Assembly: GCA_964016885.1 (NCBI GenBank) | Contig: OZ024742.1 | Coordinates: 247,566,001-247,630,000, forward strand | DNA length: 64,000 nt | Direction: 5' to 3' | Origin: Eledone cirrhosa | Taxonomy: Eukaryota | Part shown: positions 2,567 to 63,165 of the stretch, in pieces | Layout: each line of letters begins with the position of its first letter | Numbering within the stretch: the stretch's first letter is position 1 | Position numbers and translations under genes: made by a program | Notes under the pieces: model-generated | The model's database searches: none | What the model saw: the letters and a program-made list of their open reading frames with translations, nothing else | Told to the model about the DNA's origin: nothing

Positions 2567-2709
2567 TTCCCTTGCTTTTATCGAGAATCTAATTGTAATA
2601 CGTGACGTATTCTATTCTATAGCGATTAGGTCTTCAAAATGTTTATTATAAACATACAGAATATTTTCGAATATTCTATGTCTATATTCATATATATATA
2701 TATATATTA

Positions 2710-4855: not shown

Positions 4856-5045
4856 GGCGGTGGATTGGCAGTATTGGTAGAGTGTCGGATGCCATGCTTT
4901 GGCGCATAGAGTTACGGCCATTGCCATTCTGAGTTCAAATCCCGCCGAGGTTAACTTTGCCTTTCATCCTTACGGGTTCGATAAAATAAAGTACCAGTAA
5001 TACACTAGGTAATTGCTGGCCTTGTGCCTAACGTAGAATCAATTA
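4856..5045 (+). mobile_element. tRNA-head SINE (Meta-domain-like core)
   Basis: A-box-like TGGCAGTATTGG, B-box GAGTTCAAATCCC, core GCCTTTCATCCTTACGGG-TCGATAAAATAAAGTACCAG; more than 12 related copies in the window. Confidence 0.8.
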
Positions 5046-5216
5046 TATATATACTCAAATATAAATATGTATGCATGGCTCTATGCATATGCGTATGTGT
5101 ATATTTTATCATACTTGTTGACATGCTACCATTTTAGCAACTGAATATATATACATACATATTCATACATACATACATACATATTCATACATACATACAT
5201 ACATATACATACATAC

Positions 5217-7164: not shown

Positions 7165-7343
7165 ATAATTGTTTCTACTTTAGGCACAAGGCCAGCAATT
7201 ACCCAGTACATTACTGGTACTTTATTTTATCGACCCCGTAAGGATGAAAGGCAAAGTTAACCTCGGCGGGATTTGAACTCAGACTGTAAAGAGACGTAAC
7301 TATGCTAGAAAGCATGGCGTCCAACCCTCTACCGATACTGCCA
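7165..7343 (-). mobile_element. tRNA-head SINE, same family as 4856
   Basis: Reverse complement of family sequence (TTTATCGACCCCGTAAGGATGAAAGGC...GGGATTTGAACTC). Confidence 0.8.
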
Positions 7344-9619
7344 AAATGTGTATCATTTGATATTTGATATAATATTATATCATATATACCACCACTCCAA
7401 CGCCTCACTACGCCATAGCACCCTCTGGACCTTCTCAACACCCATCAGGGGCCGGTAGCGTCCACTTTGAGAACCTCTGCTTTACGTTAATCCACGTGCC
7501 TTTACCTCAGATAACCTGACAACGATATAACAAGCTTAGACATTTCTAGAATATGTCGTATAACCCATATACATTTCTTTGAAGATAAATCTAAAAGATT
7601 TCGACTCTGATGTAAAGTAATACATTGAGTAGTTCAACATCTCCGTTAAGTATTAATTCTCGAGTAATGTACAGGTTCTTTGAGATGCTGATTCCGAAGA
7701 GCTTCAAACGTTTTACATATATACTTGTAAGTATTCGTTATTACTGATAAATATTTTCCCCGAAATATATCTGATCAGATCCCTAATTGATAACTAAACA
7801 ACATGTGATAACCATGACAACAACTTTTATTGGTAGAACACTGAAGACGAAGATCGGAATCTACTAAATTAGCTGAGTGTTTTCCATAACATGAATAAAT
7901 TCTGCTTTCCCATTTCCCAAGAACACCTGGATTCAGCCAGAGTCAATAGTGACACCCCAATACGGTCGCTTGATCTGCAAGTAATAGCAGACAAATGCTT
8001 CTCAAATCTCAAACAAAAAGTTACTAATATTAAGTGGCATATTAGATATTGTACTTTCCTATATACAAAAAAATTGACGGTCGTTGTTGTACCAACTTTA
8101 ATCATAGCTGAAAGCCATTTAAGCAGACCTAGAAATAAAAATGTTTCCTTGGGTTTTATACCTTAGTGAAATCCGGAAAATACAAAATCAGTGTTTCCAT
8201 ACAGTTTAGCTCATTTCAAGGCTCATCCAGCAAAACGATGATGAAAGCGTTCCTGCCATGATCTTTCCCACATAATAGTTTCAAACAACAAGGCGTACAT
8301 TATATAACTGTACTTTTTTTATAATATAGCGACGTGTGATTTGAGGGAAATTTGGCTGCTATTCCTAAAGACCTCTTCGGTGTGTGTTTATATATTCATT
8401 TAATACAATAAATTCTACCCTTCATTTTGACAGTTCGTAAATATAAGGTACTTTTTAAATGGGAATTGGGCAGGGGGGAATAGAATGATGAATGTGAAGT
8501 CTTTGAAATTATGTTTCGTTCAAGAGAAATTTATGGCAAACAAGAAGTCAAATTGATTCAATTGAGAATCGAACGCGACTCCAACAGATTTCAAATCGAT
8601 TCATTTCTGCGGCAGATTTCAAACATATGTTTCCACACCATCTTAATGTTAAGAAATGACACACATACACACAGACATACAGAGGGAATAGACATACAGA
8701 GGGGGAGAGAGTATCTTCACAACAAGCACAAACTTGGACACACACACATGCATACAGAAATATAAACATATATACCTACACACACACACACAATCACTCA
8801 CATACATACACATACACACACACACACACAGTGTGTCACCTCACAACAATTACCATCCTTTATACACCTCACAATGAATCTGCTGCAGGGTACAATGTGA
8901 GATATGTCGGAAAACTTTTCAAGAAATCGAATCATAGGATGCAAAATAAATCAAAACCACCAAAACCAAAACAACAGCAACGAGTTTAAATAAGAACAAG
9001 TTCAAACAAAGCTATCTTCAGCGAAACAACAATAACAACAATAACAATAACAAAAACAACACCAACAACATTATCAACAACAACAAAAATAACAATAATA
9101 CAATCTCAATAACAACAACAACATAACAACAAAACTATCAACAGTAATCACAAGAACACCAGCATCAACCACATTGATAGGAAAATCATTTGAAACAAAG
9201 ATTGTTTCAGTTTAGTTAGATTAAGTAAAGTTTGCAAGAGTTTCCTTGCCTGTTTGGATATAACCCAAAAGATAAGTTACCTTGAGGGTCTCTAGACTTC
9301 TGAATGTGACAAGCAGAAGTTAGTAAAACGATGGAATATGCCGATGGAATGGTGAGCAACTGATATCTCAACGATTTTACCAATTTTACCAGTCTTGTCT
9401 CGAAGAAACTGCGCAATATATAACAATGCGGTAAGGCATATACAAACATACATACGCACACCCACATACGTAAAGACACACACACATACACACACACACA
9501 CATATATATATATATAATCATACATATATATACCTATACATACGTGCATACATACATACAATCACACACGCATTCATATATGTAGATCCATAAATACGGA
9601 CTTACGTATTCATGGATGT

Positions 9620-12362: not shown

Positions 12363-12546
12363 TTTATTCCGGGTTGAATCGGAGGTAACCACAGTAAGTA
12401 AGGTACTCAATACATTGCAGAGTATAAAAGTTTTAATATAGATGAGATTCTACAGGACTAGAACTGTTTCATTCTTTAGAAATTCCTGATGATTTCTAAA
12501 GAATGAAACAGTTCTAGTCCTGTAGAATCTCATCTATATTAAAACC
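12362..12546 (-). mobile_element. Fold-back insertion in (TA)n with partial HHR at the fold
   Basis: Arms ~12430-12483/12492-12545. Plus strand CTGATGA TTTCTAAAGAAT GAAACAGTTC at 12486-12514 lacks the 5' half of helix I. Flanked by (TA)n. Confidence 0.75.
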
Positions 12547-12629: not shown

Positions 12630-12973
12630 TAGAAAGTGAGGTTTATTTTACAAAATGAAAAATAACCGAGGTGTCCTACACGAGTGAAAGTATAAAGAAA
12701 AAGAGATGAAATCGAAAATGCAACTGGAGTCTTATTTTTTTTTTTTAAATATATATATTTATTTGGTTCCTTTACCGGTTTCGCAGTTCTTCTGCTTTTC
12801 AAAAGGTGAGTTGAGATGGAGGGTCTGTGGTTTTTCTAAAAACCACAGACCCTCCATCTCAACTCACCTTTTGAAAAGCAGTAGAACTGCGAAACCGGTG
12901 AAGGAACCAAATAAATATATATATTTAAAAAAAAAATAAGACTCCAGTTGCATTTTCGATTTCAGCTCTTTTT

Positions 12974-14177: not shown

Positions 14178-14460
14178 AATATATGTATATATATATTTAT
14201 AATTTACTAAATTATTATTTAAAACGTCACAATCCAGAAGAGTAGGAACAAACATCTGTTGCAAAACACTTACGCGTGTTTCATTGATATGTAACATATC
14301 AGTCTAGGATCGCTAATTTTTGGCTATTTCAATCAAAGCAAATCGAGTAAAACACTACAATTGATTACTCCAACTGAAACTGAATAGTGCTATACATATA
14401 TGTTTATATATATATATATATATATGTATATGTATATACATACATATATATATATATATA

Positions 14461-16299
14461 AATTGAAACAAAATGAAAACGAAATTTCATTTCTCACTCT
14501 TAGTATGGCACTTACTTAAATGTAAGTATGCATGTATACGTACATACATATATGTATACAGACGTACAGTAGCATGCACATATATATATATATATATACA
14601 GACATATACATACATATGCATACAGGTACACATACATATATGCACGTATCAGTTTAGCGGCGCTAACGTCGCTTTGTTCGTTTGTAAACAAACTGAACAG
14701 CCTGAATTTATGCCATACGGTGTTAAGGCAACCACGTCACCTTTTTGTTCAACACTGACACAGGAACGATGTACTAGTTTCAAGCTTGTTAGCTATCATC
14801 AGCACCGTTTACCCATCTGCCAGATAGTTGAACGTTCGAAAGTATATACTTTCCTTATGAAAATTAACGGCTGAGCAGCCTAATTTGCATATTGAGTGAG
14901 TTAAATCGGTCAGGCATACCGAAAACGATAAATTGAAACAAAATGAAAACGAAATTTCATTTCTCACTCTTAGTATGGCACTTACTTAAATGTAAGTATG
15001 CATGTATACGTACATACATATATGTATACAGACGTACAGTAGCATGCACATATATATATATATATATACAGACATATACATACATATGCATACAGGTACA
15101 CATACATATATGCACGTATCAGTTTAGCGGCGCTAACGTCGCTTTGTTCGTTTGTAAACAAACTGAACAGCCTGAATTTATGCCATACGGTGTTAAGGCA
15201 ACCACGTCACCTTTTTGTTCAACACTGACACAGGAACGATGTACTAGTTTCAAGCTTGTTAGCTATCATCAGCACCGTTTACCCATCTGCCAGATAGTTG
15301 AACGTTCGAAAGTATATACTTTCCTTATGAAAATTAACGGCTGAGCAGCCTAATTTGCATATTGAGTGAGTTAAATCGGTCAGGCATACCGAAAACGATA
15401 AATTGAAACAAAATGAAAACGAAATTTCATTTCTCACTCTTAGTATGGCACTTACTTAAATGTAAGTATGCATGTATACGTACATACATATATGTATACA
15501 GACGTACAGTAGCATGCACATATATATATATATATATACAGACATATACATACATATGCATACAGGTACACATACATATATGCACGTATCAGTTTAGCGG
15601 CGCTAACGTCGCTTTGTTCGTTTGTAAACAAACTGAACAGCCTGAATTTATGCCATACGGTGTTAAGGCAACCACGTCACCTTTTTGTTCAACACTGACA
15701 CAGGAACGATGTACTAGTTTCAAGCTTGTTAGCTATCATCAGCACCGTTTACCCATCTGCCAGATAGTTGAACGTTCGAAAGTATATACTTTCCTTATGA
15801 AAATTAACGGCTGAGCAGCCTAATTTGCATATTGAGTGAGTTAAATCGGTCAGGCATACCGAAAACGATAAATTGAAACAAAATGAAAACGAAATTTCAT
15901 TTCTCACTCTTAGTATGGCACTTACTTAAATGTAAGTATGCATGTATACGTACATACATATATGTATACAGACGTACAGTAGCATGCACATATATATATA
16001 TATATATACAGACATATACATACATATGCATACAGGTATGGCATAAATTCAGGCAAACAAACAGGTAAACAAACTGAACAGCCTGAATTTATGCCATACA
16101 CCGTATGGCATAAATTCAGGCTGTTCAGTTTGTTTACAAACGAACAAAGCGACGTTAGCGCCGCTAAACTGATACGTGCATATATGTATGTGTACCTGTA
16201 TGCATATGTATGTATATGTCTGTATATATATATATATATATGTGCATGCTACTGTACGTCTGTATACATATATGTATGTACGTATACATGCATACTTAC

Positions 16300-16302
<3 letters not shown>
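14461..16302 (-). mobile_element. Retrozyme/PLE-type tandem array: 470-bp units (3.35 copies) plus terminal inverted segment, inserted in (TA)n
   Basis: AATTGAAACAAAATG recurs at 14461, 14931, 15401 and 15871; identical 133-aa ORFs support unit identity. ~16100-16302 is the reverse complement of ~14519-14721. (TA)n on both sides. Confidence 0.88.
14765..14809 (-). ncRNA. Minimal type I hammerhead ribozyme (repeated at 15235-15279 and 15705-15749)
   Basis: Minus strand AACGGTG-CTGATGA-T AGCT AACA AGCT T-GAAA-CTAG-TA-CATCGTT: 7-bp helix I, paired helix II, palindromic helix III CTAG, GUA triplet. Confidence 0.88.
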
Positions 16303-17677: not shown

Positions 17678-17871
17678 TAACGAAGGAAATGTGGTAAGGA
17701 ACCAAGTGGACCATAACGTACCAAAGTACTCAATACTTCGGGTAGTAGAGTGGGTAATAGGAAACGAGTAGGACCCCGACGGCTGAGCTCAAGCCGTTTC
17801 GACGGCTAATTCTGTAGTCCAGAATTAGCCGTGGAAACGGCTTGAGCTCAGCCGTCGGGGTCCTACTCGTT

Positions 17872-19858: not shown

Positions 19859-20507
19859 TGTGTAAATGTTCATACTAGGTAAATAAATATATATTTATGT
19901 CTGTTCCTCTGAGTGTGTCTACTTAAACATATAACATAAATGAAGAACAACAGAAAATAAAAATAACAAAACACAAAACAACAAAACTAGATAAAGCAAC
20001 AACAACAACAAAAACTACCATAAATCTTGGTGCTTTTAGCTTGATGAGTTGTCGGTCAATCACTGTAGTTTAGTAATTTCATCAAGGGACCAGATGGATA
20101 TGAGGTGTTGCAAAGATTAACGGACGGTGGCTGTTCTCAGCTGCAACAACCAAGCTATTTATACTTTCCTTTTAGAATATATATCGTTTTCTCTCCCACT
20201 CTCCCTGTCTTTGTCTTAATGGAGATATTTATCAACAAATAACAACAATAAAATATATAATCATAAATGGTAGGAATCTTGAGTTGTTTTAGACTTAGAA
20301 TAAATAATCTTAGATGAGGTTCGGTGGTAAAAATATATGTAGCTATCATAACGAAATGAAGTGTTGCAATATTTGTTTTTCAAACGGGCATTATGCGGTA
20401 TACTTATGAAACCCTAGTTCAAGACCTATAAAGACCATCTGAAAGGCGTATACCGCGTTACGGTTTTTGTTGTTAAAACAGTGCGTTTGGGTGGCAAAGG
20501 GGAGTAA

Positions 20508-20910
20508 ATAATTGTTTCTACTTTTGGCACAAGGCCAGCAATTATCCAGTACATTACTGGTACTTTATTTTATCGTCCCCGTAAGGATGAAAGGCAAAAT
20601 TAACCTCGGCGGGATTTGAACTCAGAATGGAAAGGACCGTAACTCTATTCGTCAAAGCATGGCGTCCGACCCTCTACCGATACTGCCAATACAATAATGG
20701 TTTTTTAAATAGGCACAAGGCCAGCAACTTGGGGGGAGGGGAAAATCGCTTATATCGACTCTAGTGCATGCCTGGTACTTTATTTTATCGACCTCGTAAG
20801 GATGAAAGGCAAAGTTAACCTCGGCGGGATTTGAAATCAGATAATAAAGGGCCGTAACTCTATGCTGCAAAGCATTGTGACCGACCCTCTACCGATACTG
20901 CCAATCCACC
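20508..20910 (-). mobile_element. Two tandem tRNA-head SINE copies
   Basis: Family sequence at ~20508-20689 and ~20708-20910. Confidence 0.8.
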
Positions 20911-21333
20911 ACTCTAAAGTGAAGTAAATAATAGAAGCTCTGCACTATACCTGACTAGGTATTTTTACTTTCATTTAAAAATACATGTTGATATTTACAA
21001 TCTCCTCCACCCAACACCCACACACATATGCAAACCCACGCACATAGACAGGCACACTCGTACATGTCTTAACACATTTCCCACAAATAACAAAACAATT
21101 GTATAAATTGTATAATCTTTACTTTAAATAACTAAAATGCGTGATGTTTTATATATATATATATATATAAAGAAGGAGGTGTGGTAAGGAACCAGATGGA
21201 CCATAACGCACGAGAGTACTCAATACTTAGGGTAGTAGAGTGGGTAATAGGAAAATGTTTAACACCGGCGACAGAGCTCAAGCCGTTTCGGCGGCTATTT
21301 CTGGACGATATATATATATGTGTGTGTTTGTAA

Positions 21334-21481: not shown

Positions 21482-29617
<8,136 letters not shown>

Positions 29618-35364: not shown

Positions 35365-35973
35365 AGATACTATTTATAGTTATGTATGTATATACTATAC
35401 TATAAACAACTATAAACAGGGAAGGTCAGTAATTTATTACTACCTTATTACCAGTAAGAGAAACAGCTCAATGTAAGAACATCAGTTGTTTTACAGAGCA
35501 GTAATATAGAATACACAAGTATCAAAGTTATGTTAAAAACATTTAATCGCTGACAATTGTTTCTTCGAAACTTAGGCTTAGCGTCCTCAGAGCATTATCA
35601 ATGTTAGTACATATAATTAACCACCTATTCAACTGAAGAATCATACAGATACATATATATTGATGTTGTGGACAACAGTTTCATGTTTATAGTGTGGAAT
35701 GGATGCGACATATATTATATTATACGAGAATTGTACAATGTTTGTACAATTCTCGTATAATATAATATATGTCGCATCCATTCCACACTATAAACATGAA
35801 ACTGTTGTCCACAACATCAATATATATGTATCTGTTTGATTCTTCAGTTAAATAGGAGGTTAATTATATGTACAAACATTGATCATACTCCGATGACCCA
35901 AGCCTAAGTTTGGAAGAAACAATTGTCAGCGATTAAATGTTTTTAACATAACTTTGATACTTGTGTATTCTAT
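35360..35973 (-). mobile_element. Fold-back insertion (~235-bp arms) with HHR in each arm
   Basis: Arms ~35505-35738/35742-35973; unique tail to the left; (TA)n flanks. Confidence 0.8.
35545..35596 (-). ncRNA. Minimal type I hammerhead candidate (helix III CAATTG, GUC)
   Basis: Minus strand AATGCT-CTGAGGA-CGCTAAGCCTAAGTTTCGAA-GAAA-CAATTG-TC-AGCGATT. The mirror arm (35888-35934 +) has CCGATGA and a cleaner helix II CCAAGC/GTTTGG. Confidence 0.6.
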
Positions 35974-36057
35974 ATATATATATATATATATATAAATACA
36001 CCCCCCACACACACACCCACACACACACACATATATATATATATATGTATATATATA

Positions 36058-36980
36058 TAAAATTGCAAGTCTGAAAATATAAAATATATACAGTATTTCC
36101 TCTCCTAGTCCGTATAAATCAACCACATGAAAAATCATTTAAACGATGCTATAAGTTTATAATGTAATTATGAAGAAATAATAGACAAATTATACAGACT
36201 ATCTTTCGCGATGTACAGCCATGACATTTATCTAAATATTTCTTTTAGCCTGTAGAAATTGACTAAACAGATAATTAACTACACGGGGTTAGGTACAAAA
36301 TAGAAGTTTGAAGAACAAATACACAAACTTTACAAAAATTCCTCTAGTCCTGAGCACCGGCGGTTCATTCTACTTTTTGGATATATCCGATCTTGGATCT
36401 ATCCACGAGGCTTGGAACTCATCAAGAGATACCTCAGACTGGACTAAGTTTTTTCTACCATGATCCCCGCCAGAAATGAATTCAAAATGGTAGAAACAAC
36501 TTAGTTCAATCTGAGGTATCTCCTGAGGAGTTCCAAGCCTCGTGGATAGATGCAAGATCAGGAATATCCAAAATGTGGAAGGAAATCGCCGGTGGTCCGG
36601 ACTAGAAGAATTTTGGTAAAGTTTATATGCATTTTATCTTCAAACTTCTATTTTGTACCTAACCCCGTGTAGTTAATTATCTGTTTAGTCAATTTCTACG
36701 GGCAAAAAGAACTAATTAGATAATTGTCATATGGCTGTACTTCCCGGAAGATAGTCTGTATCATTTGTCTATTATTTCTCCATAGTTACATTATAAACTT
36801 AAAGCCTTGTTTAAATGATCTTTTATGAGGTTGATTTATACGGACTAGGAGAGGAAATACTGTATATATTTTATCTAATAGTTCTTCAGACTTGCAATTT
36901 TATATATAGATCTCATTAATGATTATTTGCTTAATTAATTCTTCATTGAGCCACACCGTGAAAGGTAGCCAAACTCATAT
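36058..36980 (+). mobile_element. Long imperfect fold-back (~400-bp arms) plus tail
   Basis: AAAATTGCAAGTCTGAA (36059) pairs with TTCAGACTTGCAATTTT (~36885-36901). Arms are colinear up to a loop at ~36462-36486, with many scattered mismatches. Confidence 0.8.
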
Positions 36981-36981
36981 A

Positions 36982-37050
36982 AGTATCTGTGACTATGTCT
37001 AATTATATATATATACCCCTTTTATAGATATAGATATTTATTTATTTATG

Positions 37051-37146
<96 letters not shown>

Positions 37147-37220
37147 TATATACATACATAAATAAATATCTATATCTATACAAATGGGTATATATATATA
37201 TAATTAGACATAGTCACAGA

Positions 37221-37224
<4 letters not shown>
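36982..37224. repeat. Inverted repeat centred on (TA)n
   Basis: AGTATCTGTGACTATGTCTAATT... (TA)n ...AATTAGACATAGTCACAGATACT. Confidence 0.85.
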
Positions 37225-37261
<37 letters not shown>

Positions 37262-37374
37262 TATAGAAGTGGTTACACAACAGTTAGTTCACCATACCGA
37301 GAACAATTGTTTCACCTTAGCGGATCCTCAGCTCGTAATGGACATGGTATATGGAAAAGGAAGGACAACCGTAC

Positions 37375-37606
37375 AAACTCGCGAGCCACGTATGGTCTCT
37401 CAAGGACTCAAGTATAGACTACTCCATCCAATGAAAAGCCATCACTAAGTCCAAGCAATCCGTCGTGTGGACTATGTATTGATGAAGGAATACATATTCT
37501 AAAGATATTACGCAATAATGATTGCTTAAACACGAGAAATGAATTCTTCACACGTTGTCCACACGTCTGGAAACACCTCTTACATAACTACAAAGCTCCG
37601 GATTGA
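37375..37606 (+). pseudogene. C-terminus of PLE GIY-YIG endonuclease (disrupted)
   Basis: [26 protein letters not shown], then a frameshift to CGLCIDEGIHILKILRNNDCLNTRNEFFTRCPHVWKHLLHNYKAPD*. This matches the LSxHxWxLKD..W..CxLCxxE..LNxRxE..CxH..KxLL pattern I recognise from invertebrate PLEs. In-frame TGA at 37432. Confidence 0.75.
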
Positions 37607-37774
37607 ATTACAACAACATCCTAATTTTCTTATCAACTAGAAACTTTTGGACTTTCGCAGTTATCTCCCTTACACCTTTCGCACGCAATTTAGTTTTGCC
37701 TGTGTGAAGTGAATGTTTCTTCGCATGCGCATTCGTACGGTTGTCCTTCCTGTTCCGTATAACCATGTCCATTA

Positions 37775-37812
37775 CGAGCTGAGGATCCGCTAAGGTGAAA
37801 CAATTGTTCTCG
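37775..37812 (+). ncRNA. Minimal type I hammerhead (mirror copy 37298-37335 on -)
   Basis: CGAG-CTGAGGA-T CC GCTAA GG T-GAAA-CAATTG-TT-CTCG; helix I extended by ACCAT/ATGGT; GUU triplet. Confidence 0.75.
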
Positions 37813-37910
37813 GTATGGTGAACTAACTGTTGCATAACCTCTTCTACCTAACTCGTCCCATGGACTGAGTGCTCTACCACTACGGATATTACCTTCCATA
37901 TATATATATA

Positions 37911-38535
37911 TGTAGTGACTAGCGCCATCTCTCCGGAGAACCAAAACTATTTGAAGTTACTTCCTCGTGGCCAGTATATAAGGGAGTGTTCTGACGTCAC
38001 TCGACCTCTCTTGCTCACTTACTCTCTTTGCCGGTTAACCCTTGAAGTGAACACATCGAGCGCAAGCATGCTAACCTTTTTCAACCATATCTTATAATTC
38101 AGGATTATACCTCGTCATGTCACGAGGTACATTTGGTTACCATATTTACATGCCTCAGTTATTACTTCAAATGTAGTGAGAGATAATTCTCACAAAAAGA
38201 AATTGTATGAAAAATTCTACTATATCTTATTTCTATTAAATTTAGTAGTTGGGATCCGGTGGTACTTACTGAAGTAAGTAACCCAGGGACCAACTCACTA
38301 AAAGTTGTGACCCCGTTTGAACATATATTTTCTATCGACGTCTGAACAAATAATTTCTACCGACGTTTGCATATATAATTTCTCCCGACGTTTTGAAAAA
38401 GAAAATCATCTCTCTCGACCAAAAGAGGGTAAGTGAGCAAGAGATGTCGAGTGACGTCAGAACACTCCCTTATATACTGGCCACGGGGAAGTAACTCCAA
38501 ATAGTTTTAGTTCCCCGGAGAGATGGCGCTAGTCA

Positions 38536-38540
<5 letters not shown>
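37911..38540. mobile_element. Non-autonomous DNA transposon/MITE with ~120-bp TIRs and TGT...ACA termini
   Basis: TGTAGTGACTAGCGCCATCTCTCCGG... at 37911 and ...CCGGAGAGATGGCGCTAGTCACTACA ending 38540; no clear TSD. Confidence 0.8.
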
Positions 38541-40556: not shown

Positions 40557-41799
40557 TTCAGTTACCAAGCATTAGGGGAACGAGATACATGACTGGTGAT
40601 ACACACAAAGGCAGTGATCCTACCACTATACTACAATACTAAACTACTGCTATAATTCAGTACTACATGTAGTCAGACATACAAATTATTTTGAGAAAAC
40701 ACTAATCAAATTGGCTTTCGTAACTCAGCGTTTGGAGGAACTGATTATACGAAAACAGAGTTAATTTTTTCTCTAATCTGCAGCTAATAAGTTATTTTCT
40801 GAGCTGGAAACATGCACCACAGCTATGTAATTAGAGTTAAAGAAAACAATAAAAACACAACTTCAACAAAATCTACAGCAACAACATCAGCAGCAGCACA
40901 ACAAGATCTAAAGCAACCCCACCAAATATAGCAACAAAAAACAAATCATGAATAAGTAGAAGAATAACAACAACAACAAATATAAAACTCTGCCCTCTTT
41001 AACTCTTCACGATTTTCAGCTTCAATACGGAATGAGAGTAGAGAGTTGGGACAACAAAACATTAACAACGATAATGATAACTGAAATAACAATAGTAGTA
41101 GCACAAATCTTAAAATGTTCAAAGGCTCTAGTCTCTGATAGGTCAATGAGTGATACTTTATAAAGCAGTGGAGACTTCTGGTGTCCTTGGCCCTAGGGCT
41201 ACCTCCCTACTCACCCCCATAGGCCTCTGAGCTGGCCAGTCGCAGGTGTGAGCATCGCGTATTGGAATGGCTCTTCCAGCGCATCTCCCTTACCCTCCTC
41301 CGGGGAAACACATTCTCCATTATGTCCGCGAGGGGCTGTGGGGAGGCCAGCACGTGGGACCCACTTTGCTCACCAGACAGAGAGATGGGGGGGGGGGGGG
41401 GGGCGAGAGATGGAAGCGTTGACAGTGGTATTTCGGGTCTCCCACGTTCGGACCATATCGTTGTGGTTGTGTTCATTATCTATAGAGTTCATTCATTTAC
41501 ACATCAGAAATCCATGATATTATCAGACTGCTAGCTGAATGATCTCCCAGCACAAATCTCCTGTCATATGAAAAACAATACACCAAAATGAAGATATTGT
41601 AAACGTAGCCCAAGATATTAATCTACAAACAGGACTAGTTAGTGATGAAATCCATGTATTACAGGACAACTGGATCACATCTGAAGTAGCTCAAAACAAC
41701 AACAATGACAACAGCAAGAAACACAACAGCAACAACATTAGCAATAGGTTTAACAGTAGTGTAGAGAGGGACGACAACAACAACACTGCTGACAACAGT

Positions 41800-42335
41800 A
41801 ACTATATGCGGCAAAGCATGTTGTCCAACACCCTACCGATACTGCCAATGCACCACCCCAATAGTAACAACAATAATAGCGGATTCTGATTTAAGCGCAG
41901 GCCAACAATTTCAAGGGAAGGGAAAAGTCAGTTAAATAGACCGCAGTGCATTACTGGTAAATTTATTTTATCGATCCCGTTAGGATGAAAGGCAAAGCTA
42001 ACCGCCGCAGGATTTGAACTGAGAACGTAAAGGGATGTGACTATATACTGCAAAGCATGTTGTCCGATGCTCTACCTATATTGCCAATCCACCTCTCTAA
42101 CACTAACACCAATAATGATTTCAGATTTAGGCACAAGTTCAACAAATTTGGGGACGGGGAACATTGATGAAACCGACCCCAGTGCATTACTGGTACTTTA
42201 TTTTATCGACCCCGTAAGGATGAAGGGCAAAGTTAAGCTCGGCAGGATTTGAACTCAGATCGTAAAGGGCCGTAACTCTATGCCATGAAGCATGTTGTCC
42301 GATGCTCTACCGATATTGCCAATCCACCTCCCTAA
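41800..42335 (-). mobile_element. Tandem cluster of tRNA-head SINEs (one partial, two full)
   Basis: Family sequence at ~41800-41858, ~41885-42095 and ~42118-42332. Confidence 0.75.
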
Positions 42336-42658
42336 CACTAACAATAACAATAACACATATAACAAGAACAATAACGACAATAGCAACAACAACTAATGAG
42401 TAGAGAGTAGAATGCTGGAGATTGAGGGCGTGGGGTTGTTTGGGTAGTTGAGTGTAGAATACGAAATGTGGAGTGTGTAATATAGGGGTGGCTGAATGGC
42501 GGTTGTGGGAGAGTTTGTGTAGAATGTGTGATGTGGAGTGTATATTGTGATGTGTAGGAGTTCGTGTGGTAGGTCGCTGAGTGTAGAACTGGGAATGTGA
42601 AGTGCATAATGTGGGTACGCAATGTGTAGCTTACTGGATGGGGATTATAAAGAATGAG

Positions 42659-43637: not shown

Positions 43638-43700
43638 TGCAGACACTATATATATTTCAATGGCCATCAGAATTCCTGCGATATCATCAGGTGCATTGCA
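43638..43700 (-). ncRNA. Possible minimal hammerhead (helix III TATATA)
   Basis: Minus strand TGCAATGCAC-CTGATGA-...-GAAA-TATATA-TA-GTGTCTGCA; base of helix II is weak. Confidence 0.4.
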
Positions 43701-46668: not shown

Positions 46669-47005
46669 GTACGCACACACCCTCGGACAGAAACACTTAA
46701 AGAAAGACATTCACAAACACACGCATATATATATATAAACTTTTGATATGAAAATTTAGAATTGCTTTCACTGTTTGTGAGGTGTCGTGCTATTCATATC
46801 TTTTCTCTTTGAATTATGGCATATCATTGAAATTTACGTTTCGAGGTTACGTTTAAACTGTTTTAACCAATAGGCCGCGGCCATGTTTAGATACTGGTTT
46901 CAATGATTTTCATCACTTTTATCGATACCAGTACCTTGTCTGCAGCCTGTAATACGTATCCCGAGTGAAAACATAAGACAAAAGTGATCGTTTGTTTGTT
47001 GGGAA

Positions 47006-47185
47006 AATAATTGTTTCTACTTTTGGCACAAGGCCAGCAATTATCAGTGCATTACTGGTACTTTATTTATCGCCCCCGTAAGGATGTCGGCAAAGTTAAC
47101 CTCGGCGGGATTTGAACTCAGATCGTAAAGGGACGTAACTATGCTGGAAAGCATAGCGTCCGACCTTCTACTGATATTGCCAATC
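47006..47185 (-). mobile_element. tRNA-head SINE
   Basis: Family sequence; TGTTGGGAAAATAAT occurs on both sides (possible TSD, ~46997-47011 and ~47189-47203). Confidence 0.8.
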
Positions 47186-48147
47186 CTCTGTTGGGAAAAT
47201 AATGACGGATGGAACTACCACAAGGTATTTCAATCTCATGCCCTTGCTTTGAACAAGGCAATCATTATGTCATGAGGATCTTTGTTGATAGATTCTCTAC
47301 TTTCTTTTATCAACCACAAATGGATGAAAGTCAATGTTGACATAGTATGATTTAAATATAGAATGTAAAGTGTCTGTGCAAAGTGTAACAATTCACCCAG
47401 TCAACCGTCTTTAACACCATACCTTAACACCTTCTGCTAATATTTGTACCAAGATTTCAGCTGTTACAAAAGGGATCCTGTACCAGAATTCGTTGGTGTC
47501 TGTTTTCCTCACCTCACCAAGATATAGTACATCTTATCTCATTTTTTCTCTGTTGGCTTTACCCTTGTTTTCACCGTTGTTGTTATTGTTGTTGTCGCTG
47601 TTATCGCTATCTAATCTATAACATAGGAAGGTCTGCGGGACTGCGTACGGTTTTTTTTTTTTTATCCCATTAGTAAAATAAGTTGGATTACTTTGAATAA
47701 ATAATGAATGAATATTACATAAGTTATCTACTAAATTTCGTAAACAAAAATAATTTCGTAAAAATAAATAATTTAAAAATGACTTCTTTTCAAAGTTGCA
47801 CTTCCGTTATACTTCAACTACCATATATATAGAAAGGTGTGATGTCAACACTTCCGGTGGCGATCACTTAAATAAACATACTAATTTTCTGTCACTAATT
47901 TTCTCCTAATGCAGTTTATATATAATATCGTCTTTTTTTAATGTATCATGGATTACGTTACTGATTAAATAAGACGGTGTAACACAGTCTTCGTTCAATT
48001 TCTGTTTATATTGGCAATTACGATTTTATTTGATGTATCATATCTACATGTATATATACTTGCGTATAATATCAATATACACACTACACATGCTAGCAGA
48101 AAACCACCCGAACGGTGGTTTTTCTGATAGTAATTAATAATGTTGCA

Positions 48148-49180
48148 AGGGCGGTGGATTAGTTGCATCGGTAGAGCATTGGACAACATGATTTGCGGCA
48201 TAGATTTAAGGCCCTCTATAATTCAATTTCCATCGATATTAGCTTTGCCTGTCATCCTTACGGAGTTGATAAGGTAACGTTCCTGTAACGCACTCGGGTC
48301 AATTTAAACGACAATCGCCTTTCCTTAAAATTGCTGGTCTTGTGCCAAAAATAGAGATCATTATTATTGATGTTGTCGTTGTTGTTATTATTACTTTTGT
48401 TGTGGAAGGGCGGTGGATTGGCAGTATCGGCAGAGAGTCGGACGCCATGCTTTGATGCATGGATTTACGGCCCTTGCCATTCTGAGTTCAAATACCGCCG
48501 AGATTAACTTTGTCTTTCATCCTTACGGGGTCGATATAATAAAGTACCAGTAATGCACTGGGTATGTGCTGGCCATGTGCCAAAAGTGGAAACAATTATT
48601 ACTTTTGTTGTTATTATTGATGCTATTGTCTTATTGTTGTTATTAGTAATATTGGAATTACCCCAAGGGATCGTCCGCTCATATTGGAGAACTTTTTCTT
48701 GTTTATCTTGATAATATTTTGTATTATTAACATATTTATTATCATTGTTATTTAGTAGGGCGGTGGCTTGGCAGTAACGGTAGAGTGTCGGACGCCATGC
48801 TCTGCAGCATAGAGTTACGTCCCTTTATGATCTACGTTCAAATCCCGCCGAGGTTAACTTTGCCTTTCATCGTTACGGAGTCGATAAAATACAGTACCAG
48901 TAACGCACTGGGGTTAATTTAATCGATTTTTCCCCTCCCCTAACATTGATGGCCTTGTGCCTAAATGTAGAAACAATTATTGTCATAAGGGCCGTGGATT
49001 GGCAGTATCGGTAGAGAGTCGGACACTATGCTTTGAAGCATAGAGTTACGTCCCTTTATGAACTGAGTTCAAATCCCGCTGAGATTAACTTTGCCTGTCA
49101 TTCTTACGGGGTCGATAAAATAGAGTACCAGTAATGTACTGTGTAATTGCTGGCCTTGCGCTAAAAATAGAAACAATTAT
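48148..49180 (+). mobile_element. Cluster of four same-strand tRNA-head SINEs
   Basis: Copies at ~48148-48362, 48408-48600, 48757-48980 and 48988-49180, separated by (ATT/GTT)n. Confidence 0.8.
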
Positions 49181-49657
49181 TGTCATTGTCATATCTTCTG
49201 TAAGGTTCCCTATCCTTTACCCGATTTAAACCCCACTTTACCTTGATTATTGTTCTTGCATTGTCCCTTGTATTGCCCTTGTGGCCAATGAAATAAATCT
49301 TTATTAATGTTGTTGTTATTGATGTTGTTCCTGATATTGAACATTTGTTATTGATATTTTTAATGTTGCTGGCGCTAATATTTTTATCGTAAATATTTTT
49401 GTTAGTGGTGTTGTTGTAGATTTGTGTACATATATAAGGTTTCACATGTGTCTGCACTGTTACTGTGTATTTGTAGTGTATTTAATATTTAGAGATATCC
49501 ATTGCTATCAACATAGTTATGGCGGCGTATGACGTTGGTATCCATTAATTGCGGATCATCATGCTGATATTGCGTTTGGCGTTTCCATTCCTAAAGCTGC
49601 TTCCGTTGACATTGGGTTGATTATTATTATTTTTATTATCATTGTTATTATTATTAC

Positions 49658-51827: not shown

Positions 51828-52479
51828 GAATAAAAGAATGAGAGAAAAAAGGACAGTAAGAAGGAAATAAGTGAGATATGTTGTGTTGTTAAATGTGTAA
51901 GATTGGTGTATGGCTCGAAGCGTAACATTGATAGATGGATAGAAAATGTTCAACTGAAGATTTTCCCAATAATATAATGGAATTGTGGACTAGAGCAAAA
52001 ATAGTGAGGACAACAATAGCAACGACTACAACAACAACAATAACAATTACAACAACTAGAAGAGCAATAGCAACAACTATAGCAATAAAAACAGCAACTA
52101 TAACGTCAACAACAACAATGCCAGCAACATCAACATCTACAACTACTAGTGGTTCAACAATAGCAACGACTACAACAGTAACAACAAAAACAAAACACTA
52201 CTACAACAACAGTAGCAGCAATAGTAACAGCTATATCAATAACAAAAAAACAGCAACTATAATGTTAGCAACAACAATATCATCAACATCACCAACAACA
52301 ACCATTACTACTACTAACTAAACAGCAGATTCTAGATAGATGAAAACCAAAACAACAGATTCAACAAAAATAACAACTAAAATATCAACAACAAAAACAG
52401 CAACAATAAATACTACTACAGTATCATCGACACCACCAACAAGAACAGCAATACCAACAAATTCCCTATTAACAGCAAC

Positions 52480-54677
52480 AAAATCAACAACACCACCACC
52501 ACCACCGCCATCATCATCTCCTTCCTCATCACCAACAACAACACCACTATCAACAACAACACCACTACTACCAACAACAACACCACTACTACCAAAGAAA
52601 CCACTACCACCTACAACAGCACCCCTACCACAAACAACAGCACCACAATCACCATCAACAACAACACTTCTACCAACAAAAACAACACTACCACCAACAG
52701 CAACACCACTACCACCAACAACAACACCACAATCACCACCATCAACAACAACACTACCACCAACAATAACACCACTACCACCAACAACAACACCACAATC
52801 ACCACCATCAACAACAACACTACCACCAACAATAACACCACTACCACCAACAACAACACCACAATCACCACCAACAGCAACACCACTACCATCAACAATA
52901 ACACGACTACCACCAACAACAACACCACAATCACCATCAACAACAACACCACTACCACCATCAACAACAACACTTCTTCCAACAAAAACAACACTACCAC
53001 CAACAGCAATACCACTACCACCAACAGCAACACCACTACCATCAACAATAACACGACTACCACCAACAACACCACCACAATCACCATCAACAACAACACC
53101 ACTACCACCAACAATAACACAACTACCACCAACAACAACACCACAATCACCACCAGCAACAACACCACTACCACCAAGAATAGCACCACTACCACCAACA
53201 ACATCACTACAATCACCACCAACAACACCACTACCACCAAGAATAGCACCACTACCACCAACACCAGCACCACTATCACAAACAACAACACCACCACCAA
53301 CAACAACAACAGCACCACAATCACCACCAACAACATCACTACAATCACCACCAACAACACCACTACCACCAACAACAGCACCACTACCACCAACAACAGC
53401 ATCACAATAACCACCAACAACAGCACCACAATCACCACCAACAACAGCACCACAATCACCACCAACAACAGCACCACAATCACCACCAACAACGGTACCA
53501 CAATCACCACCAACAACAGCACCACAATCACCAACAACACCACTACCACCAACAATAGCATCACAATCACCACCACCAACAACACCACTACCACCACCAA
53601 CAACAACACCACCACTACAACCAACAACATCACTACTACCAACAACAGCACCACAATCACCAACAATATCACTACCACCAACAACAGCACTACTACCACC
53701 AACAACAACAATACCACTACCACCAACAATAACACCACTACCACCAACAACAGTACCACAATCACCACCAACAACAGCACTACTACCACCAATAACAACA
53801 CCACTACCACCAACAACAACACCACTACCACCAACAACAGCACCACAATCACCACCAACAACAGCACCACAATCACCACCGACAACAGCACCACAATCAC
53901 CACCAACAACAGCACCACAATCACCACCAACAACAGCACCACAATCACCACCAACAACAGCACCACAATCACCAACCAATAACAGCACCACAATCACCAC
54001 CAACAACAGCAACACAATCACCACCAACAACAGCAACACAATCACCAACCAACAACAGCACAACTACCACCAACAACAACACCACTACCACCAACAACAA
54101 CACCACTACCACCAACAACAGCGCTACATTCACCACCAACAACAGCAACACAATCACCACCAACAACAGCAACACAATCACCACCAACAACAGCACCACA
54201 ATCACCAACCAACAACAGCACAACTACCACCAACAACAGCACCACAATCACCACCAACAACAGCAACACAATCACCACCAACAACAGCACCACAATCACC
54301 ACCAACAACAGCACCACAATCACCACCAACAACAGCAACACAATCACCACCAACAACAGCAACACAATCACCACCAACAACAGCACCACAATCACCAACC
54401 AACAACAGCACCACAATCACCACCAACAACAGCAACACAATCACCACCAACAACAGCAACACAATCACCACCAACAACAGCACCACAATCACCAACCAAC
54501 AACAGCACCACAATCACCACCAACAACAGCACCACAATCACCACCAACAACAGCACCACAATCACCAACCAACAACAGCACCACAATCACCACCAACAAC
54601 AGCACCACAATCACCAACCAACAACAGCACCACAATCACCAACCAACAACAGCACCACAATCACCACCAACAACAGT
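52480..54677. repeat. ACC/AAC-derived minisatellite (21/24/25-bp units, e.g. CCACCAACAACAGCACCACAATCA)
   Basis: Units become homogeneous rightwards; they produce the Pro/Thr-rich and Val/Gly-rich pseudo-ORFs. Confidence 0.9.
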
Positions 54678-54779
54678 CATTTGAGAGAATACAACCATCA
54701 GATAAAATCACAAGTAACATAAAAAAACAGCCTCTCTTGTAAAGCAACACAAACAATAACATCAATCATTGAGAGTAAT

Positions 54780-55380
54780 AACTTCAACTAAAACACAACA
54801 ACTCCACCTAACAACAACAAAATAAGACACGACTGTCCCACGTAACAACAGCACATGACTAAGCTCCACCTAACAACAAGACATAACAACTGCTGTACTT
54901 AAAAACACAGGACAACTGCCCCATCAAGTAATAACACACAACTATCCCACTTAACAACAACACATACCAACTACTCCACCTAAAAAGACATTGCTATTCT
55001 ACTTAACAACAGCACATAAGAACTTGTCCCTCTAAACAACAAATGACAGTTACTCGACCTAAAAAAACAACAACATATGGCAACTACTCCACCTAACAAC
55101 AACAGCCCCACCTAACAACAACACATAACAAGTATTCTACTTAACAACAAAACATAACAACTGCTCCATCTACACAAAACATGACAGCTACTCGACCTAA
55201 AAACAACATATCACAACTGCTCCACATAACAACACATAAAAACTGCTAAATCTAACAACAACGCATGACAGCTACTCGACCTAAAAACAAAACATGACAA
55301 ATACTCCACCTAACAACAGTACACTACAACTACTCCACCTAACAACAACTGCTCAACCTAACAACAACACACACTAACAC
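54780..55380. repeat. Diverged ~29-bp minisatellite (CAACTACTCCACCTAACAACAACACATGA-like)
   Basis: Recurring ACTCCACCTAAC/ACTCGACCTAAA motif at ~30-bp spacing. Confidence 0.7.
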
Positions 55381-56157: not shown

Positions 56158-56550
56158 GGAGGCTTAGTAAAATCGAATCTTTGGCGGTGTGCAAGCAAAT
56201 TCGACCTACGATATGAATGAGTTAGCAAAGCACTCGACAAGGTAGGTCCTTAGAGTAATAACATACGTTTAAATAGCTTGACAAATTGAACATTGTGGTA
56301 GGCAAAATCTAACACACAATACCAAAGTAACGAAAGAACTAAGAGGTTGAGAAAAATACGCCTGTTCAAATCAAACGTTATACGTTTAAAGTGTTTCTAT
56401 GAATCCGAAATCAAATATCAGACTTACGTAACTGGCAAACCCGTGGTATTCATGATCGAACAGAGGATTTATTTCATCAACAGGATTTCGTTCTACCAAA
56501 GAACGGGGCGAGATACTAAATGTTGTCACGTGTTATTTCCAACAAGTGAA

Positions 56551-60377: not shown

Positions 60378-60788
60378 GGAGGTGAGTTTTATTGTAGTAC
60401 AATAAAGCAATGCAGATATCGGATAAGAAGCACTCTACAGTTTGTAGGACTGGAGTATACATAATATAAGATCAAAAGATGGTTAAAGGAGTTCCATGTA
60501 TTTTATTATGCGCATTTCAAAAACAAACATCATCATGCAATAATATTTGTGTTTTCATCAGATAAAACAGGAGAACATGATATGAAGGCTAAAAAACACT
60601 TGTGGATAGTACAGTTTTAAATCAACATATGTTGATTTAAAACTGCACTATCCACAAGTGTTTTTTAGCCTTCATATCATGTTCTCCTGTTTTATCTGAT
60701 GAAAACACAAATATTATTGCATGATGATGTTTGTTTTTGAAATGCGCATAATAAAATACATGGAACTCCTTTAACCATCTTTTGATCT

Positions 60789-60797
<9 letters not shown>
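60375..60797 (-). mobile_element. Loop-less 336-bp palindrome with HHR in each arm plus tail, in (TA)n
   Basis: 60461-60628/60629-60796 with one mismatch seen; unique tail 60375-60460. Confidence 0.88.
60681..60766 (+). ncRNA. Type I hammerhead with long helix II (mirror copy 60491-60576 on -)
   Basis: TTTTAT-CTGATGA(60696)-AAACACAAATATTATT GCAT GATGATGTTTGTTTTT-GAAA-TGCGCA-TA-ATAAAA. Helix II pairs with G-U; helix III is palindromic TGCGCA; AUA triplet; outer GTTC/GAAC pairing. Confidence 0.75.
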
Positions 60798-60852
<55 letters not shown>

Positions 60853-61060
60853 GTATGACCCCGACGGCAGAGCTCAAGCCGTTTCGACGGCTATTTCTAG
60901 ACTAAATTAGAATTCTAATTGAGTCCAGAAATAGCCGTCGAAACTGCTTGAGCTCTGCCGTCGGGGTCATACTTTTTCCTATTACCCACTCTACTACCCT
61001 AAGTATTGAGTACTCTGGTGCGTTATGGTCCATCTGGTTCCTTACCACAATTCGTTCGTT
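60853..61060 (+). mobile_element. Fold-back insertion, family of 17678
   Basis: Arms 60853-60912/60913-60972; tail is the reverse complement of 17678-17760. Confidence 0.8.
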
Positions 61061-62033
61061 ATATAGAGAGAGATATGTCAAGGATATGAGAATATGTGGT
61101 GTTTATGCCTATCCTAACTTCAATATACAACATTTATAAAAATAATTTATAAAAATAATTGTTTCTACGTTAGGCACAAGGCCAGCAATTAACCAGTGCA
61201 TTACTGGTATTTTATTTTATCGACCCCGTAAGGATGAAAGGCAAAACATTTATAAAAATAATACTGAGAGAATCAGAGGGCGAGAGAGATGGAGGCGATG
61301 ACAGTGGGATTTCGGGAACTCTGTGTTCGAACCTTGTGTACGTGTATGTGCCTGCTTACTGTCTTATCATATAGACATATTTATGAATATATTTATTCGT
61401 TTGTTTACTTGTTCTATCACTTCCATTAATTATACCTGCTATATAAGGTTGTATAGATAAAGAAGCAACTGTCTTTAGTTCAACAGCAGGTGAATAGCGA
61501 CTGAAACGTCTAAATGTTCATATGGTATATTTGAAGTCCATTCTTTTAGTTTATTTACTTCACATAAATATAAATCATATTACATACTTCCTCGTACTAG
61601 ACTAGGACACTCTGTAAAAATATATTAAAACAGTATTAACGCTAGATTGAAACCGTTTCGCTGATTCACCTTTCTTTGTATGATTTATAGTTCGTGTATG
61701 CTGTGCTCAACTCTGTATTAAGATAGATACAATTAAGATAATTACACGTATTTATAATTTAATTGCTTAGTTTGCTACAAATTAGTTGCTTCTCCTTATT
61801 TTTAATTAACACCTTTTATCTTCTCATAAACTAACAGTAAAAACACAGACATTAACTTTACAGTTTATTTTCACGTGTGATATGCTACCGCTGTTGTTTC
61901 AGTTGTTGATGGTGTTATTATTATTAATAATAATGACATTATTCATATTATTGATGTTGTTGTCATAATACTTGTAATTATTATAATCATTAGCATTATC
62001 ACTATTATTATCATTGATATTATAAATAATCAG

Positions 62034-62073
<40 letters not shown>

Positions 62074-62947
62074 TATTATTATATTTTTTCGTTAGCTATA
62101 ATTAAAGGAGAGATCTGACATATGCAATATATACAATATTTTATTTCAAATTAAAATTCCTTTAAAAGTATTTCTTGTGGCTGGCTGTTTTCACCTTCGG
62201 AATATTTCTATATCGATCTGATTAAAATTTCGAGAATCTTGATTGAAAATTCATTTAAAATTATTCACTGTGTTAGTCTATTTTTCTTGGGTAGAGAGAA
62301 AATGTTGAATCCGCTCTGATGGATAACATCTATAACTCTAAAGTCCAACCCAATTAAATACTGTGTCTGACTGATTCTGCATCAAATTTACGTTAATAGT
62401 AGAGCTGTCAGTCTAAAGCCCAAACACTTACACGTTAAATTATGAGTCGGACGAGTGGTTGATCGAATAGCTGGATGGTCATCCTCGAAAATTAGGGAAA
62501 ACTCCAAAGATAACTTATAGACGCTCTGTGGTGCTAAGACTATAACACGTTTACAACAATATAATATATACGTATGAGACATGACAACCCATGACTAAAA
62601 TTATCTCATTTATCATATTCTTATATTCCCGTTTCAATCAATTCTCTTATTCTTCTTGACCGCATTCATTTATTTCTTTACACCAGGACCAACACTCTTT
62701 CCTCTATCATTTCTCCATCGTAATATATATATACATATATATGTACACAAACATATTTATAAGTACGCACACATTGATACACCCACCCATCCACACACAT
62801 ACGCACACACATTCTAATTCTATTCCATAGTAAGAGTCAACTTATACAGCTTCATATGCAAATGAGATTAATCACCTCATTTACACAGATGAGAAAACTA
62901 TATATTCTCACCTGTTTTTAAGTTCTGCAGCTGCAAAAGCGGGAGAG

Positions 62948-62991
62948 ATTGTCCTGATGAGAACCAGTTCAGTTCGAAATGCATCGACGAT
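62948..62991 (+). ncRNA. Solo minimal type I hammerhead
   Basis: ATTGTC-CTGATGA-GAAC CAGTTCA GTTC-GAAA-TGCA-TC-GACGAT; palindromic helix III TGCA, AUC triplet; outer AAGCGGG/CTTGCTT pairing; (TA)n ~135 nt downstream. Confidence 0.8.
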
Positions 62992-63165
62992 TGTCCCCCT
63001 TGCTTCTGCTCGACACCACCTGGTGGCGATAACTGTCGTTGTTTTTGCATAACTACTGCTTTCTAAATTTTTATGTACACACAGAGCGTATTTCATTAGA
63101 AATACGAAATTCCTATATAGGCACAACTATATATATATATATATACATATATATATGTAGAAACA

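What the first reader, a model, noticed from the sequence alone, without database searches (positions are those of the whole stretch)
37265..37897. Link to the autonomous partner: fold-back insert retaining a Penelope-like GIY-YIG endonuclease C-terminus
Seen: not in the ORF track, a disrupted reading frame [11 protein letters not shown]...CGLCIDE...LNTRNEFFTRCPHVWKHLL* followed by an HHR-bearing repeat, whose inverted copy forms the 5' end. This sets the sense strand (ORF, HHR and tail all +) and directly connects the palindrome/HHR/(TA)n layout with a PLE. The Cys/His-rich tail suggests a Naiad-like clade (tentative).
Basis: partly seen in the sequence, partly recalled or inferred. Interest (0 to 1): 0.78.

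Follow-up and report, generated by a model that had tools for sequence, protein, structure and literature searches.

The report
Truncated Hydra-clade Penelope retrotransposon fold-back
This is a broken, shortened copy of a known class of animal jumping gene (a Hydra-clade Penelope-like element) sitting in a TA repeat with a mirror-image piece of its own end in front, and the family's two fixed end points suggest it was likely written from both sides of a DNA cut.

Summary
The clade call is wrong. 37375-37606 holds the last ~75 codons of a GIY-YIG endonuclease, broken by a stop and a 14-base gap that other copies of the family do not share. Relatives are ~700-aa proteins with a telomerase-like RT first and the endonuclease last, with the CxxC-E…N-CxH motifs of the Hydra clade. 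Naiads have an N-terminal endonuclease and no hammerhead. A Hydra-style hammerhead follows, and a 114-nt inverted copy forms the 5' end. This layout is in print for PLEs. The family has two TA-joined 3' ends 64 nt apart, at about 1:1 in four runs. A small tail hairpin just past the short end is shared with four other fold-back families in the window and with published Hydra consensi. The element shares no BLAST-level DNA similarity with the other fold-backs, so it is not shown to be their autonomous partner. This scan already noted the two ends, the hairpin and two-ended priming on other DNA. Verdict: a new family of a known clade; the mechanism is inferred.

The parts
37225..37263 (.). (TA)n target microsatellite, left flank
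   Evidence: sequence; arm end 0 nt from the TA run
37264..37377 (-). inverted 5' arm: copy of the element's own 3' region (37732-37846), ending outward at the family's short end
   Evidence: 94% over 115 columns; short end defined by reads
37298..37335 (-). type I hammerhead motif in the inverted arm, identical to the + copy
37372..37377 (.). arm/ORF junction; both parent sequences share a 5-base word here and this copy lacks one base of it
   Evidence: loose ends before 37375 in 25, 24 and 1 contigs of three runs, read by eye against the arm; naive chance about 0.007 before allowing for the lost base
37375..37456 (+). endonuclease remnant, piece 1 (the 'L.KHIW.LK…W.I' region), with an in-frame stop at 37432-37434 private to this copy
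   Evidence: profile test; 13 of 25 identical to P0016 631-655; other copies have a sense codon in about 99% of depth
37457..37606 (+). endonuclease remnant, piece 2: CxxC, catalytic-position E, LN, CxH, stop; follows a 14-base gap relative to other copies
   Evidence: phmmer, 5 hits at E 3e-5 to 9e-4; 40 relatives; GIY-YIG fold of a relative, I-TevI Z 9.8
37607..37846 (+). 3' untranslated region / pseudo-LTR part, ending at the family's short end (37846)
37775..37812 (+). type I hammerhead motif of Hydra style: CUGAGGA core, U-flanked 2-bp stem II, palindromic stem III (CAAUUG), predicted cleavage after 37808; stem I extendable to 37769-37818
   Evidence: compared by eye with File S2 of PMC8557442; not the minimum-energy fold as a monomer (-7.6 vs -12.2 kcal/mol)
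37847..37898 (+). one-sided tail; this copy stops 12 nt before the family's main long end
37851..37870 (+). tail hairpin (RCTC - stem - bulge - GAGY), starting 4 nt past the short end
   Evidence: fold z -2.7, 1 of 200 shuffles as good; 8 sites in window vs shuffle mean 0.62, maximum 3 (pattern set after seeing examples)
37898..37911 (.). (AT)n right flank
   Evidence: sequence

Best explanation
This is a dead, 5'-truncated copy of a Hydra-clade Penelope-like retrotransposon sitting in (TA)n, and it was likely written from both sides of a DNA cut, each side copying the element's RNA from one of two fixed start points. Shown: the endonuclease remnant and its C-terminal position in relatives, the hammerhead-shaped motif, the inverted arm, and two TA-joined family ends at about 1:1. 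Inferred: the family's GIY-YIG domain cut (TA)n. The right-hand DNA end primed reverse transcription near the long site and ran about 520 nt into the endonuclease codons. The left-hand end primed at the short site and ran about 110 nt. The two cDNA ends then paired through a 5-base shared word and were filled in. The stop and the 14-base loss came later. The tail hairpin is my candidate for the protein-binding or start signal. Odds: identity about 0.95; two-ended priming about 0.5.
For: Identity. Piece 2 finds 5 proteins with the same CxLC…E…LNxRxE…CxH pattern among 1.84 billion representatives. A profile of these finds 40 longer proteins among 3331 candidates. 27 of 40 hold YRDD upstream of the match, 35 of 40 the CxC linker, and the match is at the C-terminus. 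In 34 of 40 the best match of piece 1 lies just upstream of that of piece 2. A model of full-length relative P0008 (pLDDT 88.5) has telomerase RT structures as its top five Foldseek hits. The C-terminal domain of relative P0035 matches I-TevI (Z 9.8, rmsd 2.5, 90 aligned), T4 EndoII (8.2) and UvrC (6.7). Craig 2021 defines Hydra by a C-terminal EN, CxxC and CxH beside E and N, hammerheads and (TA)n targets, and lists a Hydra copy with an inverted 5' copy. Mechanism. Short:long end counts were 88:93 contigs (X1), and 2034:2164, 2326:2402 and 2096:2139 reads (X13-X15). 12 of 20 local inverted repeats in the window have one end within 3 nt of a TA run and the other 50-151 nt away; two of the 12 look like TIR elements instead. 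In vitro an anole PLE cuts and extends both strands and starts at two RNA sites that bound the tail (PMC11167929).
Against: No full-length member of this family was recovered: no genome is held, and the direct protein search found no hit. So RT linkage rests on relatives matching over the ~45-residue piece at 30-52% identity. No tree against Naiad, Neptune or Poseidon was built. The score of piece 2 against the 40-protein profile is circular. Pfam names nothing in the pieces or the relatives, and Foldseek gave the endonuclease domain no match at E<=0.001. On mechanism: 9 of 11 tailed fold-backs examined have unpaired centres of 0-5 nt, which a cDNA snap-back explains as readily. This copy's right end is 12 nt short of the long site. 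The junction word lacks one base. The end counts come from the 24 best-supported of 636 loose-end rows, and three of the four runs are reduced-representation libraries from one study.
Confidence: 0.85

Rival explanations
1. Same element, one priming event: a single cDNA started at the long site, its 3' end snapped back on itself at the 5-base word, copied its own pseudo-LTR, and was cut or stopped at the short site by the endonuclease or the tail hairpin before joining the left flank.
For: It predicts exactly the same junction. 9 of 11 tailed fold-backs have 0-5 nt centres. Self-priming was proposed from junction palindromes (PMC3846280), and endonuclease resolution of the tail in PMC8557442. 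The arms are identical over an uninterrupted stretch covering the whole hammerhead.
Against: The short end matches a second RT start site in the one PLE tested in vitro, where both strands are extended. A snap-back across a 354-nt loop is less easy than across a short one (inference).
Confidence: 0.35
2. This family is the autonomous partner that mobilises the window's non-coding hammerhead fold-backs and arrays, recognising them by the tail hairpin.
For: The same hairpin lies 6-12 nt past the arm end in four other families of the window. Reads show a sister group that shares only 37791 onward and differs upstream (987-1099 reads per run in X13-X15). PLE mobilisation of retrozymes is proposed in PMC7229834 and bioRxiv 2026.07.22.740005.
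Against: No BLAST similarity to those families. The short fold-backs could simply be stubs of other Hydra families, since their arms are shorter than this family's 3' UTR. The 310- and 470-nt arrays lack the hairpin on the ribozyme strand. The hairpin is in other species' Hydra consensi too, so it cannot single out this family.
Confidence: 0.2
3. The remnant belongs to a Naiad element.
For: Naiads also target (TA)n and make inverted 5' copies with tails.
Against: Naiad EN is N-terminal with CCHH, and Naiads lack canonical hammerheads. Here the EN is followed by a stop, a 3' UTR and a hammerhead, and relatives have the RT upstream.
Confidence: 0.02
4. The peptide is a chance reading or a captured host-gene fragment inside a non-coding fold-back.
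For: No Pfam match. Single-sequence E-values are only 3e-5 to 9e-4.
Against: The independent piece-1 test. Other copies keep the frame open and continue it upstream. Thousands of reads from diverged copies were laid on it.
Confidence: 0.02

Closest known systems
Hydra clade of C-terminal EN+ Penelope-like elements (Craig et al. 2021, PMC8557442; sections 6 and 11 read whole, passages, supplement parts 2, 52, 53, 58, 59 of 59)
   Same: C-terminal GIY-YIG with CxxC and CxH around E and N; type I hammerhead with U-flanked stem II and short stem III; (TA)n target; inverted 5' copy (listed for Penelope-13_HM); one-sided tail.
   Different: A different family from all six consensi in File S7 by eye, including Hydra-1_Obim, whose 3' UTR and ribozyme differ. 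The family tail is 64 nt, against the 30-40 nt quoted. Stem II is only 2 bp. The tail hairpin is not mentioned in the main text (0 hits for 'hairpin' and 'stem-loop').
PAc, Poseidon-clade PLE of the green anole (Frangieh et al. 2024, PMC11167929; passages and second half of the main text read)
   Same: AT-rich target, hammerhead in the pseudo-LTR, two fixed ends bounding a tail, a stem-loop near the start sites.
   Different: Different clade, with the CCHH endonuclease. Activity was shown in vitro there and only inferred here.
Adineta vaga Pen2a and related PLEs (PMC3846280, passages read); truncated PLE hammerhead pairs on opposite strands (PMC4209133, first quarter and passages read)
   Same: Inverted pLTR plus one-sided tail; microhomology at 5' junctions; two hammerheads 100-700 bp apart on opposite strands.
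   Different: Those have target-site duplications; none can be read here inside (TA)n.
Metazoan non-LTR retrozymes (PMC7229834, passages; bioRxiv 2026.07.22.740005, first fifth and passages)
   Same: Type I hammerhead with palindromic stem III; proposed dependence on PLEs.
   Different: This element is coding-derived and is not a tandem array.
Naiad clade PLEs (PMC8557442)
   Same: (TA)n target, inverted 5' copy, tail.
   Different: N-terminal EN with CCHH; no canonical hammerhead.

Membership tests
Hydra-clade PLE | [quoted passage not shown] | tested here: met
   Remnant ends in a stop followed by 3' UTR; matches the last ~75 residues of ~700-aa relatives; that domain folds like I-TevI, Z 9.8
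Hydra-clade PLE | CxxC before catalytic E and CxH after N | tested here: met
   CGLC-IDE and LN…CPH in piece 2; definition
Hydra-clade PLE | Telomerase-like RT with DKT motif upstream in the same ORF | tested here: inconclusive
   Lost from this copy. Present in relatives: DK[TS] at the expected place in 13 of 16 proteins of 660 aa or more; TERT is the top fold match. Reads show only about 30 bases of continued frame upstream
Hydra-clade PLE | CxCX5C linker and no CCHH | tested here: inconclusive
   Region lost from this copy. Relatives: linker in 35 of 40; 0-1 Cys in the 40 residues after it in 30 of 32
Hydra-clade PLE | Type I hammerhead in the 3' pseudo-LTR | tested here: met
   37775-37812 by descriptor scan, Hydra-style layout. 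No Rfam hit at gathering score; cleavage not tested
Hydra-clade PLE | Insertion into (TA)n | tested here: met
   Both flanks; family ends join TA runs
Hydra-clade PLE | RT phylogeny places it in the clade | not testable with these tools
   No RT of this family in hand; no genome held
Naiad-clade PLE | N-terminal endonuclease ahead of the RT | tested here: not met
   Stop and 3' UTR follow the EN; the RT is upstream in relatives
Naiad-clade PLE | No canonical hammerhead | tested here: not met
   Hammerhead motif present; Naiad definition
Non-LTR retrozyme | Non-coding tandem units, each with a hammerhead | tested here: not met
   Single direct copy with a coding remnant

The most novel reading that the evidence does not exclude
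A bulged hairpin just past the short end is the clade-wide signal on which a Hydra reverse transcriptase-endonuclease dimer docks. Each insertion is written from both cut DNA ends, one from the short and one from the long start site, and non-coding hammerhead elements that carry the hairpin borrow the enzyme. This copy would be a snapshot in which one side ran into the coding region.
Probability: 0.3. Interest if true: 0.65.

Novelty: new member of a known kind. Interest (0 to 1): 0.3.

Why it matters
As an annotation it is ordinary: one more dead copy, from an apparently unlisted family of a clade described in 2021. It does correct the clade call and ties the window's hammerhead fold-back layout to Penelope-type insertion. 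How PLEs make their inverted ends and one-sided tails is still open in print (PMC8557442, PMC11167929). The 1:1 short/long end ratio and the conserved tail hairpin give a cheap genome-wide test and a defined RNA element to mutate. This scan had already raised both points on other DNA; here they were checked on one more family.

Tried and rejected
Whole genome: none held, so copies could not be counted or extended. Rfam gathering scan: 0 hits. Pfam: 0 families for both pieces, and nothing meaningful for 8 relatives or for 37 aligned relatives. Word-indexed protein search with piece 2 alone: 3 candidates, none significant. PDB sequence search with the 34-protein profile: 1 hit at E 0.82. Foldseek on the C-terminal model: nothing at E<=0.001, with GIY-YIG nucleases only as weak rows. 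No RNA holder listed among 15 runs; this says nothing on expression. No tRNA genes in the window, so an A-box-like stretch on the minus strand of the tail was dropped. Free folding of the monomer does not give the hammerhead shape (z -0.4); this is expected for dimer-type motifs and is no test. Read starts at 37724 and 37802 fall on GCATGC and AATT words in reduced-representation libraries and are taken as restriction sites (inference), not biology. No other Hydra coding relic was found in the window (profile search, next best E 3). A wider hairpin pattern gave 11 sites vs mean 1.74 (maximum 5 in 50 shuffles), 4 of them on the strand opposite the ribozyme in the 470-nt array; these 4 were not counted as support. 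Hydra-1_Obim as the parent family: rejected by eye. No earlier scan note lay near this place or resembled its sequence.

Full report
Observation. The + strand carries two peptide pieces in different frames: piece 1 from 37375 with a TGA at 37432-37434, and piece 2 from 37457 to a stop at 37604-37606. A masked self-BLAST of the window shows 37264-37377 as the reverse complement of 37732-37846 (94%, 115 columns) and no other match of 40 columns or more for this element in the 64 kb. Both ends abut TA runs. A descriptor scan finds hammerhead-shaped motifs at 37775-37812 (+) and 37298-37335 (-), among 19 sites in the window against a shuffle mean of 0.67. Rfam at gathering score finds nothing. The host was not identified, and no genome is held.

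Protein identity. Pfam and a word-indexed search with piece 2 found nothing. A full phmmer scan of 1.84 billion representatives gave 5 hits at E 3e-5 to 9e-4, all with CxLC…LNxRxE…CxH. A profile of these found 40 longer proteins among 3331 candidates, 16 of them 674-727 aa. 27 of 40 hold YRDD upstream, 35 of 40 the CxC linker, and the window matches their last residues. The piece-2 score against this set is circular, so I tested piece 1, which was never a query. It was the best of 6390 six-frame windows (18.3 bits, E 5e-4; next unrelated 7.8), and it aligned just upstream of piece 2 in 34 of 40 relatives. A model of relative P0008 (pLDDT 88.5) has telomerase RT structures as its top five Foldseek hits. 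A model of the C-terminal part of relative P0035 gave no Foldseek hit at E<=0.001. In the wide VIA search its residues 189-293 match I-TevI at Z 9.8 (rmsd 2.5, 90 aligned), T4 EndoII at 8.2 and UvrC at 6.7. The window's pieces map to P0035 235-261 and 270-309: the second half of the GIY-YIG domain. The GIY and YIG strands themselves are lost.

Clade. Craig et al. [quoted passage not shown] Naiads have an N-terminal EN and lack canonical hammerheads. The remnant fits Hydra and fails Naiad on both tested points. The ribozyme has the U-flanked stem II and short stem III seen in most Hydra rows of File S2 (by eye). By eye it is not any of the six File S7 consensi, including Hydra-1_Obim. No RT tree could be built.

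The family in reads. Ten of 15 listed runs hold part of the stretch, none half of its words. Four runs laid at 80% show that the stop is private to this copy: about 99% of the depth in each run has a sense codon. The frameshift corresponds to 14 bases seen in other copies (1 contig in X4, 2 reads in X13, loose ends in 17 contigs each of X1 and X2). Other copies continue upstream of 37375 in frame (25, 24 and 1 contigs). So this is a decayed, 5'-truncated copy of a multi-copy coding family. At the junction the ORF and the arm share a 5-base word, and this copy lacks one base of it. The naive chance is 0.007, higher once the lost base is allowed, so it is only suggestive.

Two ends. A second lay on 37700-37912 shows TA-joined ends at 37846 and 12 nt beyond 37898, 64 nt apart. 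Short:long counts were 88:93 contigs in X1, and 2034:2164, 2326:2402 and 2096:2139 reads in X13-X15. The short count adds two rows that end at the same place. Only 24 of 636 loose-end rows were shown, and X13-X15 are reduced-representation runs of one study. In this copy the inverted arm has the short end, and the direct arm stops 12 nt before the long end. In the window, 12 of 20 local inverted repeats have one end within 3 nt of a TA run and the other 50-151 nt away; two of these look like TIR elements.

Tail hairpin. After reading scan note e1-8804881 I tested for a hairpin past the short end. 37851-37870 folds well (z -2.7 for the tail). A pattern set after seeing examples finds 8 sites vs a shuffle mean of 0.62 (maximum 3 in 100). 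6 of the 8 lie 4-12 nt beyond an arm end on the tail side, in five families including this one. Among the six published File S7 consensi, read by eye, it is clear in 3 (twice in Hydra-1_Ajap), degenerate in 1 and not seen in 2. The paper's main text does not mention it. Four literature searches listed no paper on it by title or abstract start; the preprint's supplements were not seen. The two plainly non-coding arrays of the window lack the hairpin on their ribozyme strand.

Mechanism. In vitro an anole PLE cuts AT-rich DNA, extends both strands and starts at two RNA sites that bound the tail; its ribozyme needs the protein and is dispensable for insertion (PMC11167929). By analogy I infer that each cut end primed a cDNA, one near the long and one at the short site, and that the two joined at the shared word (about 0.5). 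The rival is one cDNA that snaps back and is resolved at the short site (about 0.35; PMC3846280; PMC8557442). It gives the same junction, and 9 of 11 tailed fold-backs examined have centres of 0-5 nt. The two differ on whether a short-end arm can ever reach further 5' than its partner; that needs the genome.

Verdict. The inverted 5' copy, one-sided tail and opposite-strand hammerhead pairs are all in print for PLEs. This is a new member of a known kind. The two-ended reading and the hairpin were noted earlier by this scan on other DNA and remain untested at the bench. Interest 0.3.

Noticed in passing
window 1-2689: Tandem array of 310-nt units with a hammerhead in each (7 on -) and an inverted end arm ending in TA (1 on +): retrozyme-like with a PLE-type footprint.
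   Followed up: partly
window 14460-16302: Array of 470-nt units with 3 hammerheads on - and an inverted 205-nt arm ending in TA.
   Followed up: partly
window 12405-12545, 17679-17871, 35499-35970, 60432-60793, 60850-61060, 21172-21306: Fold-backs or single arms of four unrelated families with the same tail hairpin 6-12 nt past the arm end; coding upstream parts unknown.
   Followed up: partly
window 37791-37898 (reads): A sister group shares only this part and has a different sequence upstream of the ribozyme's stem II (987-1099 reads per run in X13-X15, 51 contigs in X1): another subfamily or a non-coding derivative.
   Followed up: no
window 37914-38537: MITE-like element with 116-119-nt terminal inverted repeats directly right of the finding.
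   Followed up: no
window 36049-36911 and 36983-37223: An 863-nt palindrome without a hammerhead core, and a TA-centred palindrome, just left of the finding; each has one end at a TA run.
   Followed up: partly
window 21590-25414 vs 25707-29617: Near-identical (>98%) direct duplicate of about 4 kb; a recent duplication or an assembly artefact.
   Followed up: no
window 4856-5050, 7161-7344, 20505-20917, 41795-42353, 47005-47186, 48148-49181, 61134-61263: Dispersed SINE-like repeat family at 70-98% identity; no tRNA gene called.
   Followed up: no
window 43643-43694 (-), 62947-62992 (+), 12769-12806 (-), 56232-56256 (-): Single hammerhead-shaped motifs, one with a variant core, and a lone tail-type hairpin at 56.2 kb.
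   Followed up: no
window 52011-55371: Long degenerate C/A-rich tandem tract with extreme strand skew.
   Followed up: no
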